64,000 nt of DNA from Heptranchias perlo (lineage: Eukaryota), in contig NC_090366.1 in assembly GCF_035084215.1 (NCBI RefSeq), positions 13,888,001 through 13,952,000 on the forward strand. The letters run 5' to 3'. The position numbers and the translations under genes are program-made. Within the stretch, counting starts at the first letter, position 1. Every line of letters begins with the position of its first letter. Positions 1,520 through 11,650 of this stretch are shown one piece after another. The notes below the pieces were generated by a model. That model saw nothing but the letters and a program-made list of their open reading frames with translations, made no database searches and was not told the origin of the DNA.

Positions 1520-1607
1520 CCAGGCACACCAGGTTGATAATCATTGTTGTCATTGTTCTGCTGGCCTTCCTCACTGTGGTAGTTGTCGTCTTCCTCATTC
1601 TCAGGTG
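1520..1607 (+). CDS. CD22: CD22-like transmembrane exon (RHTRLIIIVVIVLLAFLTVVVVVFLILRW)
   Basis: ttctttcAG acceptor, 23-residue hydrophobic run, TG|GTAAGT donor (phase 2). Confidence 0.9.
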
Positions 1608-4600
1608 GTAAGTACATTCCCAGTGGAATTTCTGTAACTCGGTCTTTTGCTTTCCCATTGTTTGCCCCTTCCCTCCTGGTTTTGGTCCATTCCATAAGCC
1701 TTGGAATCTCATCCGAAGAGATTTTCCGGATCATTAGCGAGGTGGGGTGCTGGCGAGGGAAGAACTGCCCAAACCCTGGTCACCACCAGATATCTCCAAA
1801 GGTAACGGCCGTTGACATACAAACGTACCAAAATGAGGGGCAGGAAAAGACCAGGTGGTCCATCAAGCCTGCCCCACACCTCATGAAGGCTGGACCATCG
1901 AGTCTAGACACTTTCAACCCTCCCTCCCCACAGTCACGGAATCTCCTGGGAGAGGCACAAAGACCAGAGATAAACTCCCAGGGCCAATAAAATACTCTGG
2001 GAAATCCCTCTCCGACTCCCTCAGGCGATCGAACCCCACTCCAGGAGATCACACGGACCGTGTGTTATCTATAAAGACACTTATCTTCTGTACGATGCCA
2101 TCTCTGCCCCAGTCAGGGATCGGTCCAGCTCCCTCTCGAAGGCAAACAGAGAGTCAGCGTCAATCACACCAGCCGGAAACTCATTCCAGGGGATCACTAC
2201 TCTCTGGGTTAAAGAGGAACAGCCCAACTCCCGGTCTATTCCAACTTCCTGCGGTGTTTAAACTCATGTCCCAATCTGTCAAACTGGAATAATCTCTCAA
2301 ATGAATCATAGAATGGTTACAGCACAGAAGGAGGCCATTTGGCCTGTCGAGCCCGTGCTGGCTCTTTGTAAGGGCAATCCAGTTAGTCCCACTCCCCCGC
2401 CCTATCCCCGTAGCCCTGCAAATTTTTTCCCTTCAAGTACTTATCCAGTTCCCTTTTGAAGGCCACGATTGAATCTGCCTCCACCACCCCCTCGGGAGGC
2501 TCATTCCAGGTCAAAACCACTCGCTGCGTAAAAAAGTTTTTCCTCATGTCACCTTTGGTTCTTTTGCCAATCACCTTAAATCTGTGTCCTCTGGTTCTCG
2601 ACCCTTCCACCAATGGGAACAGTTTCTCCTTATTTACTTTATCTAAACCGGTCATGATTTTGAACACCTCGATCAAATCTCCTCTCAACCGTCTCTGCTC
2701 CAAGGAGAACAACCCCAGCTTCTCCAGTCCATCCACATAACTGAAGTCCCTCATCCCTGGAACCATTCAAGTAAATCTCTTCTGCACCCTCTCCAAGGCC
2801 TTCACATCCTTCCTAAAGTGCGGTGCCCAGAATTGGACATTGTGCCCTCTAGACATGTAATCTAACCCTTGCGTTATTTTCTAAACCTCTATCAGGTTGC
2901 CTCCAAGTCCAGGCTGCTGCAGAGTGAATAGACCCAGATCTATAAGCCAAGCAGAGTACTAAACTAGGCAACATTCTCATTGATATCCTCTGAACCTTTT
3001 CCAAGGCCCATTAAATCGCCCATCGTGTGAGGGGATAATGGCCAGGGTTTAGAAAAAGGTGTTTCATTCTCTCTTCCCTAACCCAGGAGATCACTTCAGG
3101 ACTCAAAGTGCTAACAGTAGGAACAGGAGGAGGCCATTCAGCCCCTCGAGCCCGTCCCGCCATTCAATGAGGTCACGGCTGACATAGGTAAGGGAACAGA
3201 GATGGGACCGGGGATCTTTCTGCCCTCTATGCTCAGCCAATCACAGGATGAACATAATCATTTTACAAAAGGATCCAATAGCCAAAAGCAATCAACAGAC
3301 GTCAGTGGATGCTGATAAAAAAAGTGTGCAGGATCCTTGCCTTTATTAATAGAGGCACAGAGTACAAAAGCAAGGAAGTTATCGCTAAACCCTTTATAAA
3401 ACTCTGGTTCGACCTCAGCTGGAGTATTGTGTCCAACTCTGGGCACCGCACTTTAGGAAGGATGTCAAGGCCTTGGAGAGGGTGCGGAGGAGATTTACCA
3501 GAATGGTCCCAGGGATGAGGGACTTCAGTTATGTGGAGAGACTGGAGAAGCTGGGATTGTTCTCCTCAGAGCAGAGAAGGTTAAGGGGAGATTTAATCGA
3601 GGGGTTCAAAATCACGAATGGGTTTTGATAGAGTAAATAAGGAGAAACTGTTTCCAGTGGCAGGAGGGTCGGTAACCAGAGGACACAGATTTAAGGTAAT
3701 TGGGAAAAGAACCAGAGGGGGAGATGAGGAGAATTTTTTTTACGCAGCGAGTTGTTCTGATCTGGAATGCGCTGCCTGAAAGGGCGGTGGAAGCAGATTC
3801 AATAATAACTTTCAAAAGGGGGAATTGGATAAATACTTGAAGGGGAAAAATTTGCAGGGGAAAGAGCAGGGGGGAGTGGGACTAATTGGATAGCTCTTTC
3901 AAAGAGCCAGCACAGGCACGATGGGCCGAATGGCCTCCTCCTGTGCTGTATCATTCTATGACTCCATGACCCCCAAACCCTTCCCATTCCATGAGAGATT
4001 ATTCTGCAAATCCTCTCGCTCATTCGAAGGAAAATATCTGATGCTAGCGGCTGAATTTCCTCCCTGGAATATTTATGTGCACTGCTGTTTCCTTAAGGAA
4101 GAAAACTAAGACGGATTCTCTCAACCAACCAGATACGGATATCGGTCACACTGTCTACAGCGTGATCATGAAACACAATAAGGTAAATGAAACCACAGCG
4201 TGAAAGAAAGAACCTGCATTTCTATCAAGCCTTTCACCACCTCAGGACGTCCCAAAGCCCCTTTACAGACAATGAAATACTTTTTGAAGTGTGGTCACTG
4301 TTGTAATGTAGGAAACGCGGCAGCCAATTTGCGCACAGCAAGATCCCACGAACGGCAATGTGATAAATGACCAGATCATCTGTTGGTTGAGGGATAAATA
4401 TCGGCCCAGGACACCGGGGAGAACTCCCCCCTGCTCTTCTTCCAATAGTGGCCGTGGGATCTTTTACGTCCACCTGAGAGGGCAGACGGGGGCTTCGGTT
4501 TAATGTCTCATTCGAAAGACGGCCCCTCCGACAGTGCGGCACTCCTTCGGTACTGACCCTCCGACATTGCAGCACTCCCTCGGTATTGACCCTCCGACAG

Positions 4601-7600
4601 TGCAGCACTCCCTCAGTACTGACCCTCCGACAGTGCAGCACTCCCTCAGTACTGACCCTCCGACAGTGCAGCGCTCCCTCAGTACTGACCCTCCGACAGT
4701 GCAGCACTCCCTCAGTACTGACCCTCCGACAGTGCAGCGCTCCCTCAGTACTGACCCTCCGACAGTGCAGCACTCCCTCAGTACTGACCCTCCGACAGTG
4801 CAGCGCTCCCTCAGTACTGACCCTCCGACAGTGCAGCACTCCCTCAGTACTGACCCTCTGACAGTGCAGCGCTCCCTCAGTACTGACCCTCCGACAGTGC
4901 GGCGCTCCCTCAGTACTGACCCTCCGACATTGCAGCACTCCCTCGATACTGACCCTCTGACAGTGCAGCGCTCCCTCAGTACTGACCCTCCGACATTGCA
5001 GCACTCCCTCGATACTGACCCTCTGACAGTGCAGCGCTCCCTCAGTACTGACCCTCCGACATTGCAGCACTCCCTCGATACTGACCCTCTGACAGTGCAG
5101 CGCTCCCTCAGTACTGACCCTCCGACATTGCAGCACTCCCTCGATACTGACCCTCTGACAGTGCAGCGCTCCCTCAGTACTGACCCTCCGACAGTGCAGC
5201 GCTCCCTCAGTACTGACCCTCCGACAGTGCAGCGCTCCCTCAGTACTGACCCTCCGACAGTGCAGCGCTCCCTCAGTACTGACCCTCCGACAGTGCGGCG
5301 CTCCCTCAGTACTGACCCTCCGACAGTGCAGCGCTCCCTCAGTACTAGCACTGGGGAGTGTCGGCCTGGATTATGGGCTCAAACATAGAAACATAGAAAA
5401 TAGGAGCAGGAGTCGGCCATTCGGCCCTTCAAGCCTGCTCCGCCATTCAATATGATCATGGCTGATCCTCTATCTCAATACCATATTCCCGCTCTCTCCC
5501 CATACCCCTTGATGCCTTTTGTGTCTAGAAATCTATCGAGCTCCTTCTTAAATATACTCAGTGACTTGGCCTCCACAGCCTTCTGTGGTAGAGAATTCCA
5601 CAGGTTCACCACCCTCTGAGTGAAGAAATTTCTCCTCATCTCAGTTCTAAATGTCCTACCCCGTATCCTGAGACTGTGACCCCTCGTTCTGGACCCCCCA
5701 GCCAGGGGAAACATCCTCCCTGCATCCAGCCTGTCTAGCCCTGTTAGTTAGAATTTTATACATCTCAAGCCTCTGGAGTGGGGGCTCGAGCCCCCGACCT
5801 TCTGTCTCAGGGGTGAGAGTGCGACCTTATGTGGTTGGGTGTCAAATTTTGCTTGCTGACACTGCTGTGAAGCACCTTGGGACGTTTTACTATGTTTAAA
5901 GATGCTGTATAGATATTGCCACTGTTGAGAAGTGAGAGGTGAGAATTGAAATTAATAATCTGCGCTCTGCTTTGCAGTCAAAGGAAAACACAGTGTATGA
6001 AAACATGGTGATGACCGAAGTGATGGCCTCCAACTGCAATCAGAGTCCTCTCCGGCCTGAAGACCGTATCGAGTACGCCTCGATCAACTTTACTCATGGT
6101 TCCAGAGATATCGGAGGACGTCACCAAAAGGATACGGCTTGGTTCGTATCTGCTGCTGGTGCCTTTGTTACCTCCAGACGCCATTATTCCAACGGTCTCC
6201 TGGCCGTCCTCCCATCTCCCACCCTCCGTAAACTCCAGCTCATCCAAAAACTCTGCTGCCCTGCTGTATCCTAACTCGCACCGAGTCCCGTTCACCCATC
6301 ACCCACTGTGCTCGCTGACCCACATTGGCTCCCGGTTCCGGGAACGCCTCGATTTTAAATTCCTCATCCTTGTTTTCAAATCCCTCGCGCCCCCCTTTCC
6401 CTATCTCTGTAACCTCCTCCAGCCCTCCGAGATCTCTGCGCCCCTCCAATCCCGGCCTCCCGCGCAGCCCCCCGATTCCCATCGCTCCGCCATTGGCGGC
6501 CGTGCTTTCAGCTGCCCGGGCCCTGAGCTCTGATGGGGAGGTCACGGAGGGATTCGAACAGGAGGATGGAGAGTTTTAAAATCGAGGCGCGGCCAGACCG
6601 GGAGCCAGTGTCGGTCAGCGAGCACAGGGTGGGTGATGGGGGAACGGGACTCGGTGCGAGTTAGGATACTGTGGGGGGGGGCAGCAGAGTTTTGGATGAG
6701 CTGGAGTTCACGGAGGGCGGGAGATGGGAGGCCAGCCGGGAGAGACAGTCATAATATTTACCTTTTTTTTGACTCTCGCGTTTCCTTTTGAATTTCACAG
6801 GCCGACAGGAAAGGAAAATTCCAGAGTGAATCGGCAGGCTGATGAGAAAGTAATTTATGGCCTTGTACACAAAGCACCTCCTTCAACCAAGGTACAGCAG
6901 GAGATGCGATGGCAATATGAGCTGTTGGATTAAATCATCTGGTTTATGCATTGACTCGGAGGTACAGAGACACCGAAAGCATCGACTGAGCAAATGCCCG
7001 CGTGTATTTTAAAAGCAAAATAATGCGGAAACTGGAAATCTGAAATAAGAACAGAAAATGCAACGGCAGCTCAGCGAGTGAGGCAGCGTCTGTGGAGAAA
7101 GAAACGGAGTTAATGTTTCAGGTCGAAGGCCTCTCGTCCGATATGTGTGTGTGTGTGTGTTTTCATTAACAGCAGACATGTGAGTGGACTGCAGAGTAGC
7201 GAACAGGCCGCATGTCAGATCCGGCTCAGTGGGCCACACCCCGTGAGTCAGAAGGTCGTGGGTTCGAGCCCCCACTCCAGAGACTCGAGCCCCACAATCC
7301 AGGCCGACACTCCCCAGTGCCCAGTACTGAGGGAGCGCCGCACTGTCGGAGGGTCAGTACTGAGGGAGCGCCGCACTGTCGGAGGGTCAGTACTGAGGGA
7401 GCGCCGCACTGTCGGAGGGTCAGTACTGAGGGAGCGCCGCACTGTCGGAGGGTCAGTACTGAGGGAGTGCTGTACTGTCGGAGGGTCAGTACTGAGGGAG
7501 CGCCGCACTGTCGGAGGGTCAGTACTGAGGGAGCGCCGCACAGTCGGAGGGTCAGTACTGAGGGAGTGCTGTACTGTCGGAGGGTCAGTACTGAGGGAGC

Positions 7601-10600
7601 GCCGCACTGTCGGAGGGTCAGTACTGAGGGAGGGCCGCACTGTCGGAGGGTCAGTACTGAGGGAGCGCCGCACTGTCGGAGGGTCAGTACTGAGGGAGGG
7701 CCGCACTGTCGGAGGGTCAGTACTGAGGGATCGCTACGCCGTCGGAGGGTCAGTACTGAGGGAGCGCTGCACTGTCGGAGGGTCAGTACTGAGGGAGCGC
7801 CACACTGTCGGAGGCTCAGTACTGAGGGAGCGCCGCACTGTCGGAGGGTCAGTACTGAGGGAGCGCTGCACTGTCGGAGGGTCAGTACTGAGGGAGCGCC
7901 GCACTGTCGGAGGGTCAGTACTGAGGGAGCGCCGCACTGTCGGAGGGTCAGTACTGAGGGAGCGCCGCACTGTCGGAGGGTCAGTACCGAGGGAGCGCTG
8001 CACTGTCGGAGGGTCAGTACTGAGGGAGCGCTGCACTGTTGGAGGTGCCGTCTTTCGGATGAGACGTTAAACCGAGGCCCCGTCTGCCCTCTCGGGTGGA
8101 TGTAAAAGATCCCACGGCCACTATTTCGAAGAAGAGCAGGGGGGAGTTCTCCCCGGTGTCCTGGGGCCGATATTTATCCCTCAACCAACATCACGAAAAA
8201 AACAGATGATCTGATCATTATCACATTGGTGTTTGCGGGATCTTGCTGTGCGCAATTCGGCTGAATTTGACAATGAAGGTAATCCATTGGCTGTGAAGCA
8301 TTTTGGGATGTCCTGAGTTTGTGAAAGCCGCGATATAAATGCTTCTTATTGTATCTGATGGTCAAAGACCAGCCATCAGTGAAACATAGTGCAGCATCAC
8401 AGGCCTGTAAAAGTAAGAACTTGCCTTTATAGGGCGCCTTTCACGTCCTCAGGACGTCCCGCGGCCAACGAGCGACCTTCTGAGCGGCACGTGCCGCGTG
8501 GGGGAGACGCAGCAGCCGTATATGCGCACAGCAGGATCCCGCAAGCTGCAAACGGATGGATGGTCCCGGTGGTGTTGACAGAGGGACACCCGGGGAGAGA
8601 GCTTCCCTGTTGTTCGATCAGCGCGAAGGCATCTTTAAGCACCCAGTGTGGGGACTGGAGTCACGTGTAGGCCCCAGACCCTGGGGTCAGGGTTCAAGGT
8701 TCATTGACCCCTGATTTTAGTGAACCAGTTGGGTTTTTATGACAACCCGGCGGCCGACGTGGCCAGTTCCGTTTACGTTTGTTCGACAAACGCCCCCGGT
8801 TTATTCAGTTTTATTTTACGGTGGAGTTTGGTGAAAAAGTCCAATTTAGTTTCGCTTGGAATCGACTTGAGCTGGAAACCAACAGCCACAAAAAAAAGAA
8901 ATGGTAGATTTCAGACACGAAAATATTCATTGTGGGTTAGGAAATTAGGCAGTAACGAAGAGTTGCCTCACACCAGCCTGATTGCATCTGCAAATCCTGG
9001 CTGGGTTTTGTAATTTTTCCTGTTACATTTCATCGAGGCGGAAAGTTCAGAAAACGTTTGGTGGGGACTGGACTCAGGATGTAGATCGCACGGAAGTAAG
9101 ATTGAAAAGCAGCTCCACACTTCCCATAAATACTCGGAGGCGAAACATTCGTAGGGCTGTGGGGAAACAGCAGGGGGGGTGGGGGAGCGGGACTAATTGC
9201 TCGTTGGAAGAGCCGGCACAGGCACGATGGGCCGAATGGCCGCCTGCTGTGCTGTAGCATTCTATCATTATGTGAGTCAGGCCAGTTGTCTCATCTCCGC
9301 AGCTCTGACAGTGCGGCGCTCCCTCAGTACTGACCCTCCGATAGTACAGCGCTCCCTCAGTACTGACCCTCCGACAGTGCGGCACTCCCTCAGTACTGAC
9401 CCTCCGACAGTGCGGCGCTCCCTCAGTACTGACCCTCCGACAGTGCGGCGCTCCCTCAGTACTGACCCTCCGACAGTGAGGCGCTCCCTCAGTACTGACC
9501 CTCCGACAGTGCGGCACTCCCTCAGTACTGACCCTCCGACAGTGCGGCGCTCCCTCAGTACTGACCCTCCGACAGTGAGGCGCTCCCTCAGTACTGACCC
9601 TCCGACAGTGCGGCGCTCCCTCAGTACTGACCCTCCGACAGTGCGGCGCTCCCTCAGTATTGACCATCCGACAGTGCAGCGCTCCCTCAGTACTGACCCT
9701 CCCACAGTACAGCGCTCCCTCAGTACTGACCCTCCAACAGTACAGCGCTCCCTCAGTACTGACCCTCCGACAGTATAGCGCTCCCTCAGTACTGACCCTC
9801 CGACAGTGCAGCGCTCCCTCAGTACTGACCCTCCGACAGTGCGGCACTCCCTCATACTGACCCTCCGACAGTGCAGCACTCCCTCAGTACTGACCCTCCG
9901 ACAGTGCAGCGCTCCCTCAGTACTGACCCTCCGACAGTGCAGCACTCCCTCAGTACTGACCCTCCAACAGGGCAGCACTCGCTCAGTACTGACCCTCCGA
10001 CAGGGCAGCACTCCCCCAATAGATCGAATCGGGCCAGGACCTACTCCGTTAATGGTAGGGCGTTGGGGAGAGTTATAGAACAAAGAGATCTAGGAGTACA
10101 GGTTCATAGCTCCTTGAAAGTGGAGTCACAGGTGGATAGGGTGGTGAAGAAGGCATTCAGCATGCTTGGTTTCATTGGTCAGAACATTGAATGCAGGAGT
10201 TGGGATGTCTTGTTGAAGTTGTACAGGGAATTGGTGAGGCCACACTTGGAATACTGTGTACAGTTCTGGTCACCCTATTATAGAAAGGATATTATTAAAC
10301 TAGAAAGAGTGCAGAAAAGATTTACTAGGATGCTACCGGGACTTGATGGTTTGACTTATAGGGAGAGGTTAGACAGACTGGGACTTTTTTCCCTGGAGAG
10401 TAGGAGGTTAAGGGGTGATCTTATAGAAGTCTATAAAATAATGAGGGGCATAGATAAGGTAGACAGTCAAAATCTTTTCCCAAAGGTAGGGGAGTCTATA
10501 ACGAGGGGGCATAGATTTAAGGTGAGATGGGAGAGATACAAAAGGATCCAGAGGGGCAATTTTTTCACTCAAAGGGTGGTGAGTGTCTGGAACGAGCTGC

Positions 10601-11650
10601 CAGGGGCAGTAGTAGAGGCGGGTACAATTTTGTCTTTTAAAAAGCATTTGGACAGTTACATGGGTAAGATGGGTATAGAGGGATATGGGCCAAGTGCAGG
10701 CAATTGGGACAAGCTTACTGGTGTAAACTGGGCGACATGGACATGTTGGGCCGAAGGGCCTGTTTCCATGTTGTAACTTCTATGATTCTATGATACTGAC
10801 CCTCCAACAGGGCAGCACTCCCTCATACTGACCCTCTGACAGTGCAGCACTCCCTCAGTACTGACCCTCCGACAGTGCAGCACTCCCTCAGTACTGACCC
10901 TCCGACAGTGCGGCGCTCCCTCAGTACTGACCCTCCAACAGTGCAGCGCTCCCTCAGTACTGACCCTCCAACAGTACAGCGCTCCCTCAGTACTGACCCT
11001 CCGACAGTGCAGCGCTCCCTCAGTACTGACCCTCCAACAGTGCAGCGCTCCCTCAGTACTGACCCTCCGACAGTGCGGCGCTCCCTCAGTACTGACCCTC
11101 CGACAGTGCGGCGCTCCCTCAGTACTGACCCTCCGACAGTGCGGCGCTCCCTCAGTACTGACCCTCCGACAGTGCGGCGCTCCCTCAGTACTGACCCTCC
11201 GACAGTGCGGCGCTCCCTCAGTACTGACCCTCCGACAGTGCGGCGCTCCCTCAGTACTGACACTGGGGGAGTGCCGGCTGGGATTACGGGGCTCGAGTCT
11301 CTGGAGTCGGGGCTCGAACCCACGACCTTCTGACTCAGAGGCGAGGGATGAAAGACCCACTGAGCCTCGGCTTAAAAGTTCAGAAGAAGCAAAAGTAGAG
11401 GAAGATAAGTAGCCAGCCAGAGCGTGTTTCCCATTCGGGAGTGGCAAACCAACTCATTCTGATTTTGCCCCTGTTACAGCACCAAGCCACCGATGATTAT
11501 GAAAATGTTGGCCATATATACTCAAATGGGGACGACACAAGTGAGGATGAAATCAATTACACCTCAGTTGTGCACGTAAACAAGCCCAGGAACCGTTTGC
11601 AACGACAGGAATCGGAGGAAAGCATCGACTACACCGCCATCAGGTTTTAA
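1520..11650 (+). CDS. CD22: CD22 (Siglec-2)-like receptor, 3' partial gene: join(1520..1607,4098..4182,5978..6141,6801..6891,11480..11650); ectodomain exons lie upstream of the window
   Basis: Five AG/GT-bounded exons with matching phases (1,2,0,2,0) give TM + tail. Tail motif order YENM..EDRIEYASINF / DEKVIYGLVHK / DDYENV..EDEINYTSV..ESIDYTAIRF* parallels human CD22 as recalled (YNPMMEDGISYTTLRF / DDTVTYSALHK / GDYENV..EDEGIHYSEL..ENVDYVILKH). Adjacent to a second Siglec. Confidence 0.8.
2305..3965. mobile_element. CR1 3' fragments (minus 2305-2840; plus 3300-3965)
   Basis: LEKLGLFSLEQRRLRGDLIE..NFFTQRV. Confidence 0.85.
4098..4182 (+). CDS. CD22: CD22-like cytoplasmic exon 1 (KKTKTDSLNQPDTDIGHTVYSVIMKHNK)
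   Basis: tttccttaAG acceptor (phase 2), basic stop-transfer residues, TVYSVI motif, AAG|GTAAAT donor. Confidence 0.85.
4205..5810 (-). mobile_element. tRNA-derived Deu-domain SINE (SacSINE1/AmnSINE-like) with internal 33-bp array (~25 units); head interrupted by a CR1 3' fragment (5384-5760)
   Basis: Deu core GTCTTTCG.ATGAGAC.TTAAACCGA..AAAGATCCCACGGC..CCCCGGTGTCCTGG; L2-like tail; head resumes at ~5765. Confidence 0.8.
5978..6141 (+). CDS. CD22: CD22-like cytoplasmic exon 2 (SKENTVYENM...EDRIEYASINF...DTAW)
   Basis: tttgcAG acceptor (phase 0), YENM and IEYASI motifs; weak donor TG|GTTCGT gives the phase 2 needed for the next exon. Confidence 0.8.
6160..6745. mobile_element. Two L2 LINE fragments in inverted orientation
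   Basis: L2 ORF2 C-terminal region (..RLDFKFLILVFKSL..IGGRAFS) on plus and its reverse complement. Confidence 0.8.
6801..6891 (+). CDS. CD22: CD22-like cytoplasmic exon 3 (PTGKENSRVNRQADEKVIYGLVHKAPPSTK)
   Basis: Long pyrimidine tract + cAG, ITIM VIYGLV, AAG|GTACAG donor. Confidence 0.85.
7222..8350 (+). mobile_element. Full-length Deu-SINE with 33-bp array (~22 units, 7322-8045)
   Basis: A-box-like GGCTCAGTGG, B-box GGTTCGAGCCC, array, Deu core, tail ending ATATAAATGC. Confidence 0.85.
9300..11370 (-). mobile_element. Deu-SINE 5' part with 33-bp arrays split by a CR1 insertion
   Basis: Arrays 9305-10015 and 10795-11260, tRNA-like head ~11270-11370. Confidence 0.8.
10019..10794 (+). mobile_element. 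5'-truncated CR1 LINE (ORF2 C-terminus + 3' UTR) nested in the SINE array
   Basis: QRDLGVQVH..LVRPHLEYCVQFWSPY..RRLRGDLIEVYK..FFTQRVV; TTCTATGATTCTATGA tail. Confidence 0.9.
11480..11650 (+). CDS. CD22: CD22-like last coding exon (HQATDDYENV...EDEINYTSV...ESIDYTAIRF*)
   Basis: ctgttacAG acceptor (phase 0), YENV plus two ITIM-type motifs, TAA at 11648-11650. Confidence 0.88.
   Translation, partial: HQATDDYENVGHIYSNGDDTSEDEINYTSVVHVNKPRNRLQRQESEESIDYTAIRF

What the first reader, a model, noticed from the sequence alone, without database searches (positions are those of the whole stretch)
4098..11650. CD22-like tail appears built from a duplicated two-exon signalling module
Seen: exons 4098-4182 (85 nt) and 6801-6891 (91 nt) are both phase 2->0 and end in xVYxxV/I-x-K..K type motifs (TVYSVIMK, VIYGLVHK). 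Each is followed by a phase-0 exon with YEN(M/V) and then ED-x-I-x-Y-x-S-(I/V) (EDRIEYASI, EDEINYTSV). Inference: the tail is [ITIM exon + YEN/ITIM exon] x2, a tandem duplication still legible here and eroded in mammals.
Basis: partly seen in the sequence, partly recalled or inferred. Interest (0 to 1): 0.7.

Follow-up and report, generated by a model that had tools for sequence, protein, structure and literature searches.

The report
Shark CD22 tail: doubled Siglec cassette
The signalling tail of this shark gene for CD22, an immune "brake" receptor, uses four exons that repeat a two-exon layout found once in neighbouring Siglec genes, likely from an old internal duplication whose exon layout humans keep but whose sequence echo they have mostly lost.

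Summary
The gene is an elasmobranch CD22 orthologue with a four-exon tail: A1 85 nt (phase 2→0), B1 164 nt (0→2; donor shown by spliced contigs), A2 91 nt (2→0), B2 (0→stop). Three of three neighbouring Siglec-like genes with a resolvable tail carry this A+B pair once, so CD22 has it twice. The window's own halves are not alike beyond shuffles (p=0.13). All similarity lies in the tyrosine motifs, so convergence is not excluded. "Eroded in mammals" is half right: human exons 11-14 keep the same phases, so the doubling likely predates the shark-mammal split, but copy 1 has lost motifs. The tail is predicted to work like mammalian CD22 (SHP-1, Grb2) with an extra Grb2-type site. The scan noted tail-exon duplications in other shark Siglecs, not in CD22. 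My paper searches found no statement of this origin. A modest evolutionary insight about a known receptor.

The parts
1520..1607 (+). Transmembrane exon (88 nt, phase 1->2)
   Evidence: AG/GT ends, hydrophobic run, in frame with upstream Ig exons and with A1; aligns with the TM of shark CD22-like proteins
4098..4182 (+). Tail exon A1 (85 nt, phase 2->0), motif TVYSVI (ITSM-like), Tyr 9 codons before the intron; counterpart of human exon 11, which has no Tyr
   Evidence: junctions inferred, not seen in contigs
5978..6141 (+). Tail exon B1 (164 nt, phase 0->2): YENM at codon 7 and EDRIEYASI; ends at a weak donor TG|GTTCGT; counterpart of human exon 12
   Evidence: donor and join to A2 seen in spliced contigs of 4 of 4 runs of one sample; motifs
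6801..6891 (+). Tail exon A2 (91 nt, phase 2->0), ITIM VIYGLV, Tyr 12 codons before the intron; counterpart of human exon 13
   Evidence: covered end to end by spliced contigs
11480..11650 (+). Terminal tail exon B2 (phase 0->stop): YENV at codon 7, ITIM INYTSV, terminal IDYTAI; counterpart of human exon 14
   Evidence: 56% identical to the Carcharodon CD22-like C-terminus; single copy in the genome

Best explanation
This is the cytoplasmic tail of a shark CD22 orthologue, encoded by four exons (2->0, 0->2, 2->0, 0->stop) that likely arose by one in-gene tandem duplication of the standard two-exon Siglec tail, probably before sharks and mammals split. Inferred steps: a precursor tail had a short 2->0 exon with a V-Y-S-x-V motif and a terminal exon starting with YEN plus an acidic ITIM. 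The pair was copied in tandem. The upstream copy of the terminal exon lost its last motif and stop and was read on through a newly used phase-2 donor, the one change needed to keep frame into the second 2->0 exon. Copy 2 stayed intact everywhere examined, while copy 1 decayed lineage by lineage (rays lost its ITIM Tyr; mammals lost the A1 Tyr and the YEN). Predicted function, by analogy with mammalian CD22: after phosphorylation by a Lyn-like kinase the ITIM-type sites would bind SHP-1/2 and the two YEN sites would bind Grb2, giving seven conserved docking tyrosines against six in mammals.
For: (1) 3 of 3 neighbouring Siglec-like genes whose tail could be resolved have TM(1->2) + one 79-82 nt exon (2->0) + one terminal exon (0->stop) (predicted from DNA). 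(2) hhalign of half 1 vs half 2 from 9 elasmobranchs finds the A+B register unforced: probability 65.9%, E 5.7e-5, 48 columns, near the true orthologous pair shark half 2 vs mammal half 2 (86%, 5e-6). My own profile score beat 500 of 500 column shuffles and 496 of 500 shuffles that keep Tyr blocks intact. (3) Junction-anchored test p<=0.015 in 8 of 9 elasmobranchs; unconstrained local p<0.05 in 6 of 9. (4) YEN is at codon 7 after the phase-0 intron in both B exons in 8 of 9 (7 and 6 in the ninth), and the A-exon Tyr lies 8-12 codons before it; selection on the protein does not see intron position (inference). (5) The halves match each other better than either matches a profile of four single-cassette Siglec tails (10.6% and 2.8%). 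(6) Human exons 11/12/13 are 76/119/85 nt (PMC10000517) and exon 12 spans c.2208-c.2327 (PMC4292938), which gives the same phases. (7) The same gene shows other internal duplications: V-C-C before V-C-C, d1 vs d4 40% identical.
Against: The window's own halves do not beat shuffles in local alignment (p=0.13), and their best protein and DNA alignments take another register. With motifs removed only 1 of 9 elasmobranchs is nominally significant (p=0.047) and 0 of 7 mammals. With motifs kept intact but moved, only 4 of 9 stay at p<0.05 (window 0.06). The nine species are related, not independent, and their exon borders were projected from this window. B1 scores as well against terminal exons of neighbouring Siglecs (p 0.004-0.054) as against B2 (p 0.007) in the anchored test. 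Intron flanks show no likeness (p 0.45-1.0). No bony fish, amphibian or reptile CD22 tail was retrieved. No binding was tested.
Confidence: 0.68

Rival explanations
1. Convergence. The tail lengthened by other means (intron gain, exonisation), and selection for kinase, SHP and Grb2 sites produced similar acidic-x-Y-x-x-hydrophobic and YxN motifs twice.
For: No likeness outside the motifs or in DNA flanks. The window's halves fail the plain shuffle test. A YEN ... ED-x-IY layout also occurs in the terminal exon of another neighbouring Siglec-like gene.
Against: It does not explain the repeated 2->0 / 0-> phases, which equal the single Siglec cassette twice, nor YEN at the same codon after the intron. 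The Tyr-block-preserving null is beaten 496 of 500 times.
Confidence: 0.17
2. Capture from a neighbour. One cassette came from another Siglec of the cluster by unequal crossover or gene fusion, not from CD22's own tail.
For: CD22 lies among Siglec-like paralogues with the same cassette phases. B1's second motif resembles their proximal ITIM (HH E 0.003), and B1 scores as well against their terminal exons as against B2.
Against: The three neighbours' A exons have no Tyr and their terminal exons no YEN, whereas both CD22 halves have both. Half vs half 66%, half vs paralogue profile 3-11%.
Confidence: 0.1
3. Duplication in another register. B1's two tyrosines match the last two of B2 (the ITIM + terminal pair of all Siglecs), and its YEN arose later.
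For: The best single-sequence protein alignment and DNA alignment (p=0.025 vs codon shuffles) of B1 and B2 in this window take this register. Mammal half 1 aligns to the last motif of shark half 2.
Against: Profiles prefer the junction register; the second-ranked local hit, which pairs B1's last motif with B2's last motif, had probability 0.1%. This register needs loss of about 20 codons at the exon's 5' end.
Confidence: 0.05

Closest known systems
Mammalian CD22 (Siglec-2)
   Same: Four tail exons with the same phases; second half aligns motif for motif (HH 86%); YENV Grb2 site and ITIMs (PMC5302901, PMC3342095, passages); V-set Arg matching human R120; Ig domains 4-6 and 10-11 best match human D1-D3 and D6-D7 in order.
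   Different: Seven conserved motif tyrosines in sharks vs six; a Tyr motif in the first tail exon and a second YEN, both absent from 7 of 7 mammals; 11 Ig domains with two V-set domains vs 7 with one.
RefSeq 'B-cell receptor CD22-like' proteins of sharks and rays (e.g. XP_041037097.1 Carcharodon, XP_051901442.1 Pristis)
   Same: Collinear over the whole length, 41-47% identical, same motif order.
   Different: Automatic names only, with no statement on tail origin. Rays lack the B1 ITIM tyrosine.
Single-cassette Siglec tails (neighbouring genes here; CD33-related Siglecs, recalled)
   Same: TM(1->2) + short 2->0 exon + terminal 0->stop exon with an ITIM and a terminal Tyr motif.
   Different: One cassette, no Tyr in the short exon and no YEN in the three neighbours resolved.
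Inhibitory receptors with repeated tyrosine modules (LILRB/PIR-B, SIRP-alpha; recalled, not tested)
   Same: Tail lengthened by repeating a Tyr-bearing unit.
   Different: Other gene families; repeats there are recalled as plainly visible, here they are seen only by profile and exon phase.

Membership tests
Siglec | N-terminal V-set domain with the sialic-acid-binding Arg | tested here: met
   Both V exons pass Pfam V-set and Ig_CD22 cut-offs; Arg aligns with human CD22 R120 in both
Siglec | Run of C2-type Ig domains, single TM, cytoplasmic tail | tested here: met
   11 open phase 1-1 Ig exons + TM + tail in one open frame
Siglec | Binds sialic acid | not testable with these tools
   needs a binding assay
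CD22 (Siglec-2) | Tail with YENV Grb2 site flanked by ITIM/ITIM-like tyrosines, homologous to mammalian Y3-Y6 | tested here: met
   shark half 2 vs mammal half 2, HH 86%, E 5e-6; alignment
CD22 (Siglec-2) | Four cytoplasmic exons, phases 2-0, 0-2, 2-0, 0-stop | tested here: met
   window; human from published exon coordinates
CD22 (Siglec-2) | Seven Ig domains with one V-set (mammalian form) | tested here: not met
   11 domains, two V-set, shared with other sharks and rays; a lineage variant, not evidence against orthology
CD22 (Siglec-2) | Conserved synteny with mammalian CD22 neighbours (recalled: MAG, FFAR genes) | tested here: inconclusive
   Siglec-like genes lie on both sides but were not named; no long single-exon receptor ORF was recognised by eye among long ORFs of the 264 kb read
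CD22 (Siglec-2) | B-cell expression; SHP-1 and Grb2 recruitment | not testable with these tools
   contigs give neither tissue nor level
Tandem exon duplication | Repeated exon pair with the same phases and lengths | tested here: met
   85/91 nt, both 2->0; both B exons start in phase 0
Tandem exon duplication | Sequence likeness of the copies beyond chance | tested here: inconclusive
   met for profiles and anchored tests; not for this window alone, for non-motif residues or for intron DNA

The most novel reading that the evidence does not exclude
CD22's tail in all jawed vertebrates is a Siglec cassette doubled once; sharks keep both copies as two working SHP + Grb2 units, and the six mammalian tyrosines are the survivors (Y3-Y6 from the intact copy, Y1-Y2 from the decayed one). 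This would explain why Y1 has no clear role and why loss of human exon 12 shifts the frame. With two Arg-bearing V domains, shark CD22 would be doubled at both ends.
Probability: 0.45. Interest if true: 0.5.

Novelty: new variant of a known kind. Interest (0 to 1): 0.35.

Why it matters
If true, it gives an origin and a map for the much-studied tyrosines of CD22, a drug target in B-cell disease: which belong to the conserved core and which to a decaying copy. It also suggests a direct test, whether each shark half alone recruits SHP-1 and Grb2. It does not change what CD22 is thought to do, and exon duplication in receptor tails is an ordinary mechanism, hence the modest score.

Tried and rejected
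Word-based protein search with exon B2 found no candidate (weak evidence). P0003-P0005 are chance or unrelated hits by inspection and were dropped. The second contig lay (1450-4300, 98% likeness) showed nothing on the TM or A1 exons; the tool says a hole proves nothing. No run on record as RNA was listed; the four holders are guessed RNA and behave as spliced. Direct DNA repeats between the halves are only a 33-bp satellite and short pieces that look like interspersed repeats, not traces of the duplication. The motif-preserving null missed the A1 motif through a pattern error and was redone. One exon of the downstream paralogue was off by one base and corrected, so its A-exon control rows are not used. 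Rows left out of the tail statistics: duplicates or isoforms (Carcharodon X2-X4, Mobula birostris X4, Pristis X2, further primate isoforms), records without the second half (Heterodontus X2, Mobula hypostoma X3), without TM/tail (Hemitrygon, Rhincodon, Erpetoichthys) or with another tail (Hypanus, Pristis MAG-like, short Pristis forms, teleost hits, sialoadhesins). Two papers were not held, including the original exon-12 paper. No tree, structure or complex prediction was run: the tail is short and probably disordered (inference).
Full report
Observation. With the TM exon 1520-1607 (1->2) they form one open frame. B1's donor was not obvious from the DNA; contigs of 4 of 4 runs (one sample, guessed RNA) join 6141 to 6801 with GT..AG ends, so B1 is 164 nt, phase 0->2. 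The other junctions rest on splice signals, frame and orthologues; a second lay gave no contig on TM or A1 and is inconclusive.

What the gene is. In the 200 kb upstream lie 11 open phase 1-1 Ig exons, V-C-C-V-C7, ending about 1.1 kb before the window. The predicted protein is collinear with RefSeq CD22-like proteins of six sharks (45-47% identity) and two rays (41-42%). Both V domains pass Pfam Ig_CD22 and keep the Arg of human R120. Domains 4-6 and 10-11 best match human D1-D3 and D6-D7 in order. Among solved structures CD22 d1-d3 (E 8e-44) and d6-d7 (4e-34) are hit, though CEA, FCRL5 and MAG score higher overall. The second half of the tail aligns motif for motif with that of 7 mammalian CD22s (HH probability 86%). 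This is a CD22 orthologue; synteny was not settled.

Are the halves alike? For this window alone, no: local score 34, p=0.13 against residue shuffles; A1 vs A2 p=0.54; the best alignment is off-register. Across 9 elasmobranch tails (window plus 8; borders projected from the window; dropped rows listed under Tried and rejected) the unconstrained test gives p<0.05 in 6 of 9 and the junction-anchored test in 8 of 9. Keeping the Tyr motifs intact but moving them leaves 4 of 9, and removing the motifs leaves 1 of 9 at p=0.047. My own profile score was reached by 0 of 500 column shuffles and 4 of 500 Tyr-block-preserving shuffles. YEN lies at codon 7 of both B exons in 8 of 9 species. So the signal is real but is carried by three motifs and their position relative to the intron. 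DNA and intron flanks hold no trace in that register.

The decisive context. Three neighbouring Siglec-like genes have tails I could resolve from DNA: two upstream and one on the minus strand of the window (TM 31448-31343, short exon 30008-29927, last exon from 27192). All three have TM(1->2), one 79-82 nt exon (2->0) and one terminal exon (0->stop) with one or two Tyr motifs. The CD22 tail is this cassette twice, the first terminal exon cut short by a weak phase-2 donor. A profile of four single-cassette tails matches half 1 only at its ITIM (10.6%) and half 2 weakly (2.8%), less than the halves match each other, which favours copying of CD22's own tail over capture from a neighbour. Against this, B1 alone scores as well against neighbours' terminal exons as against B2 in the anchored test.

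Mammals. Published coordinates give human exons 11, 12 and 13 as 76, 119 and 85 nt (PMC10000517, passages), and exon 12 as c.2208-c.2327 with a frameshift from residue 736 when skipped (PMC4292938, passages). Mapped on the human protein, this gives the same four exons and phases. The layout is therefore shared and likely older than the shark-mammal split (inference from two lineages; no bony fish, amphibian or reptile tail was retrieved). The sequence echo is lost: anchored test 0 of 7, local 2 of 7, profile probability 1.5% and off-register. Mammalian exon 11 has no Tyr and exon 12 has YNP at codon 16 instead of YEN at 7; whether that Tyr descends from the shark YEN is unresolved. Rays have lost the B1 ITIM tyrosine. 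Copy 2 is intact in all 16 tails compared.

How it likely works. In mouse CD22, Y2/5/6 are ITIMs that recruit SHP-1 and the YENV site binds Grb2 (PMC5302901, PMC3342095, PMC6286995, PMC6173129; passages). By analogy the shark tail would be phosphorylated by a Lyn-like kinase and offer two strict ITIMs (A2, B2), two looser ones ending in Ile (B1, terminal), one ITSM-like site (A1; consensus recalled) and two YxN Grb2-type sites. The B1 site reads YENM here and in 5 of the 8 other species, which also fits a PI3K consensus (recalled), but YENV/L in three. None of this binding was tested.

Literature. Nine searches of the held library (two returned nothing) listed no paper on a duplicated CD22 tail or on shark CD22 structure. 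I read passages of nine papers and of a tenth on IgSF evolution, no whole text and no supplements. Subscription papers, including the original CD22 gene-structure papers and Siglec evolution reviews, are not held, so absence from print is not established. The scan's own notes describe tail-exon duplications in other shark Siglecs, unchecked here.

Verdict. Observation confirmed; duplication of a two-exon Siglec cassette is the best reading (about 0.68), convergence the main rival (0.17). It is a real but modest insight into the history of a known receptor: interest 0.35.

Noticed in passing
G000:C45, about 23.4 kb to 1.1 kb upstream of window base 1 (loci L002-L004): The ectodomain has 11 Ig exons with two V-set domains (V-C-C-V-C7), both keeping the sialic-acid Arg; the two-V design recurs in the six shark and ray orthologues aligned. 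Possibly a receptor with two ligand sites.
   Followed up: partly
window 47200-26975, minus strand: A Siglec-like gene (V, five C-type domains found, TM, single-cassette tail with ITIM and terminal Tyr motif) lies tail to tail with CD22; two of its Ig exons are near-identical to exons of the cluster 154-185 kb upstream.
   Followed up: partly
G000:C45, 185-131 kb upstream of the window (L015-L020): Cluster of Siglec-like genes with a near-identical duplicated terminal exon (about 166 and 148 kb upstream) and one terminal exon with a YENC ... IYANV layout and no classic ITIM.
   Followed up: partly
P0020 (Heterodontus CD22-like isoform X2): Its C-terminus reads like exon B2 in a shifted frame straight after B1 (by eye), i.e. 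a model that skips A2; this supports the same exon borders in a second shark.
   Followed up: no
window 6862-7249: Some contigs run from exon A2 into the following intron: intron retention or unspliced RNA.
   Followed up: no
window 4526-5346, 7322-8050, 9300-10010, 10795-11260: Arrays of a 33-bp satellite in both orientations fill the tail introns.
   Followed up: no
about 68 kb upstream of the window (L008): An ORF fragment that looks like a cyclic-nucleotide phosphodiesterase exon (recognised from memory) lies between the Siglec cluster and CD22.
   Followed up: no
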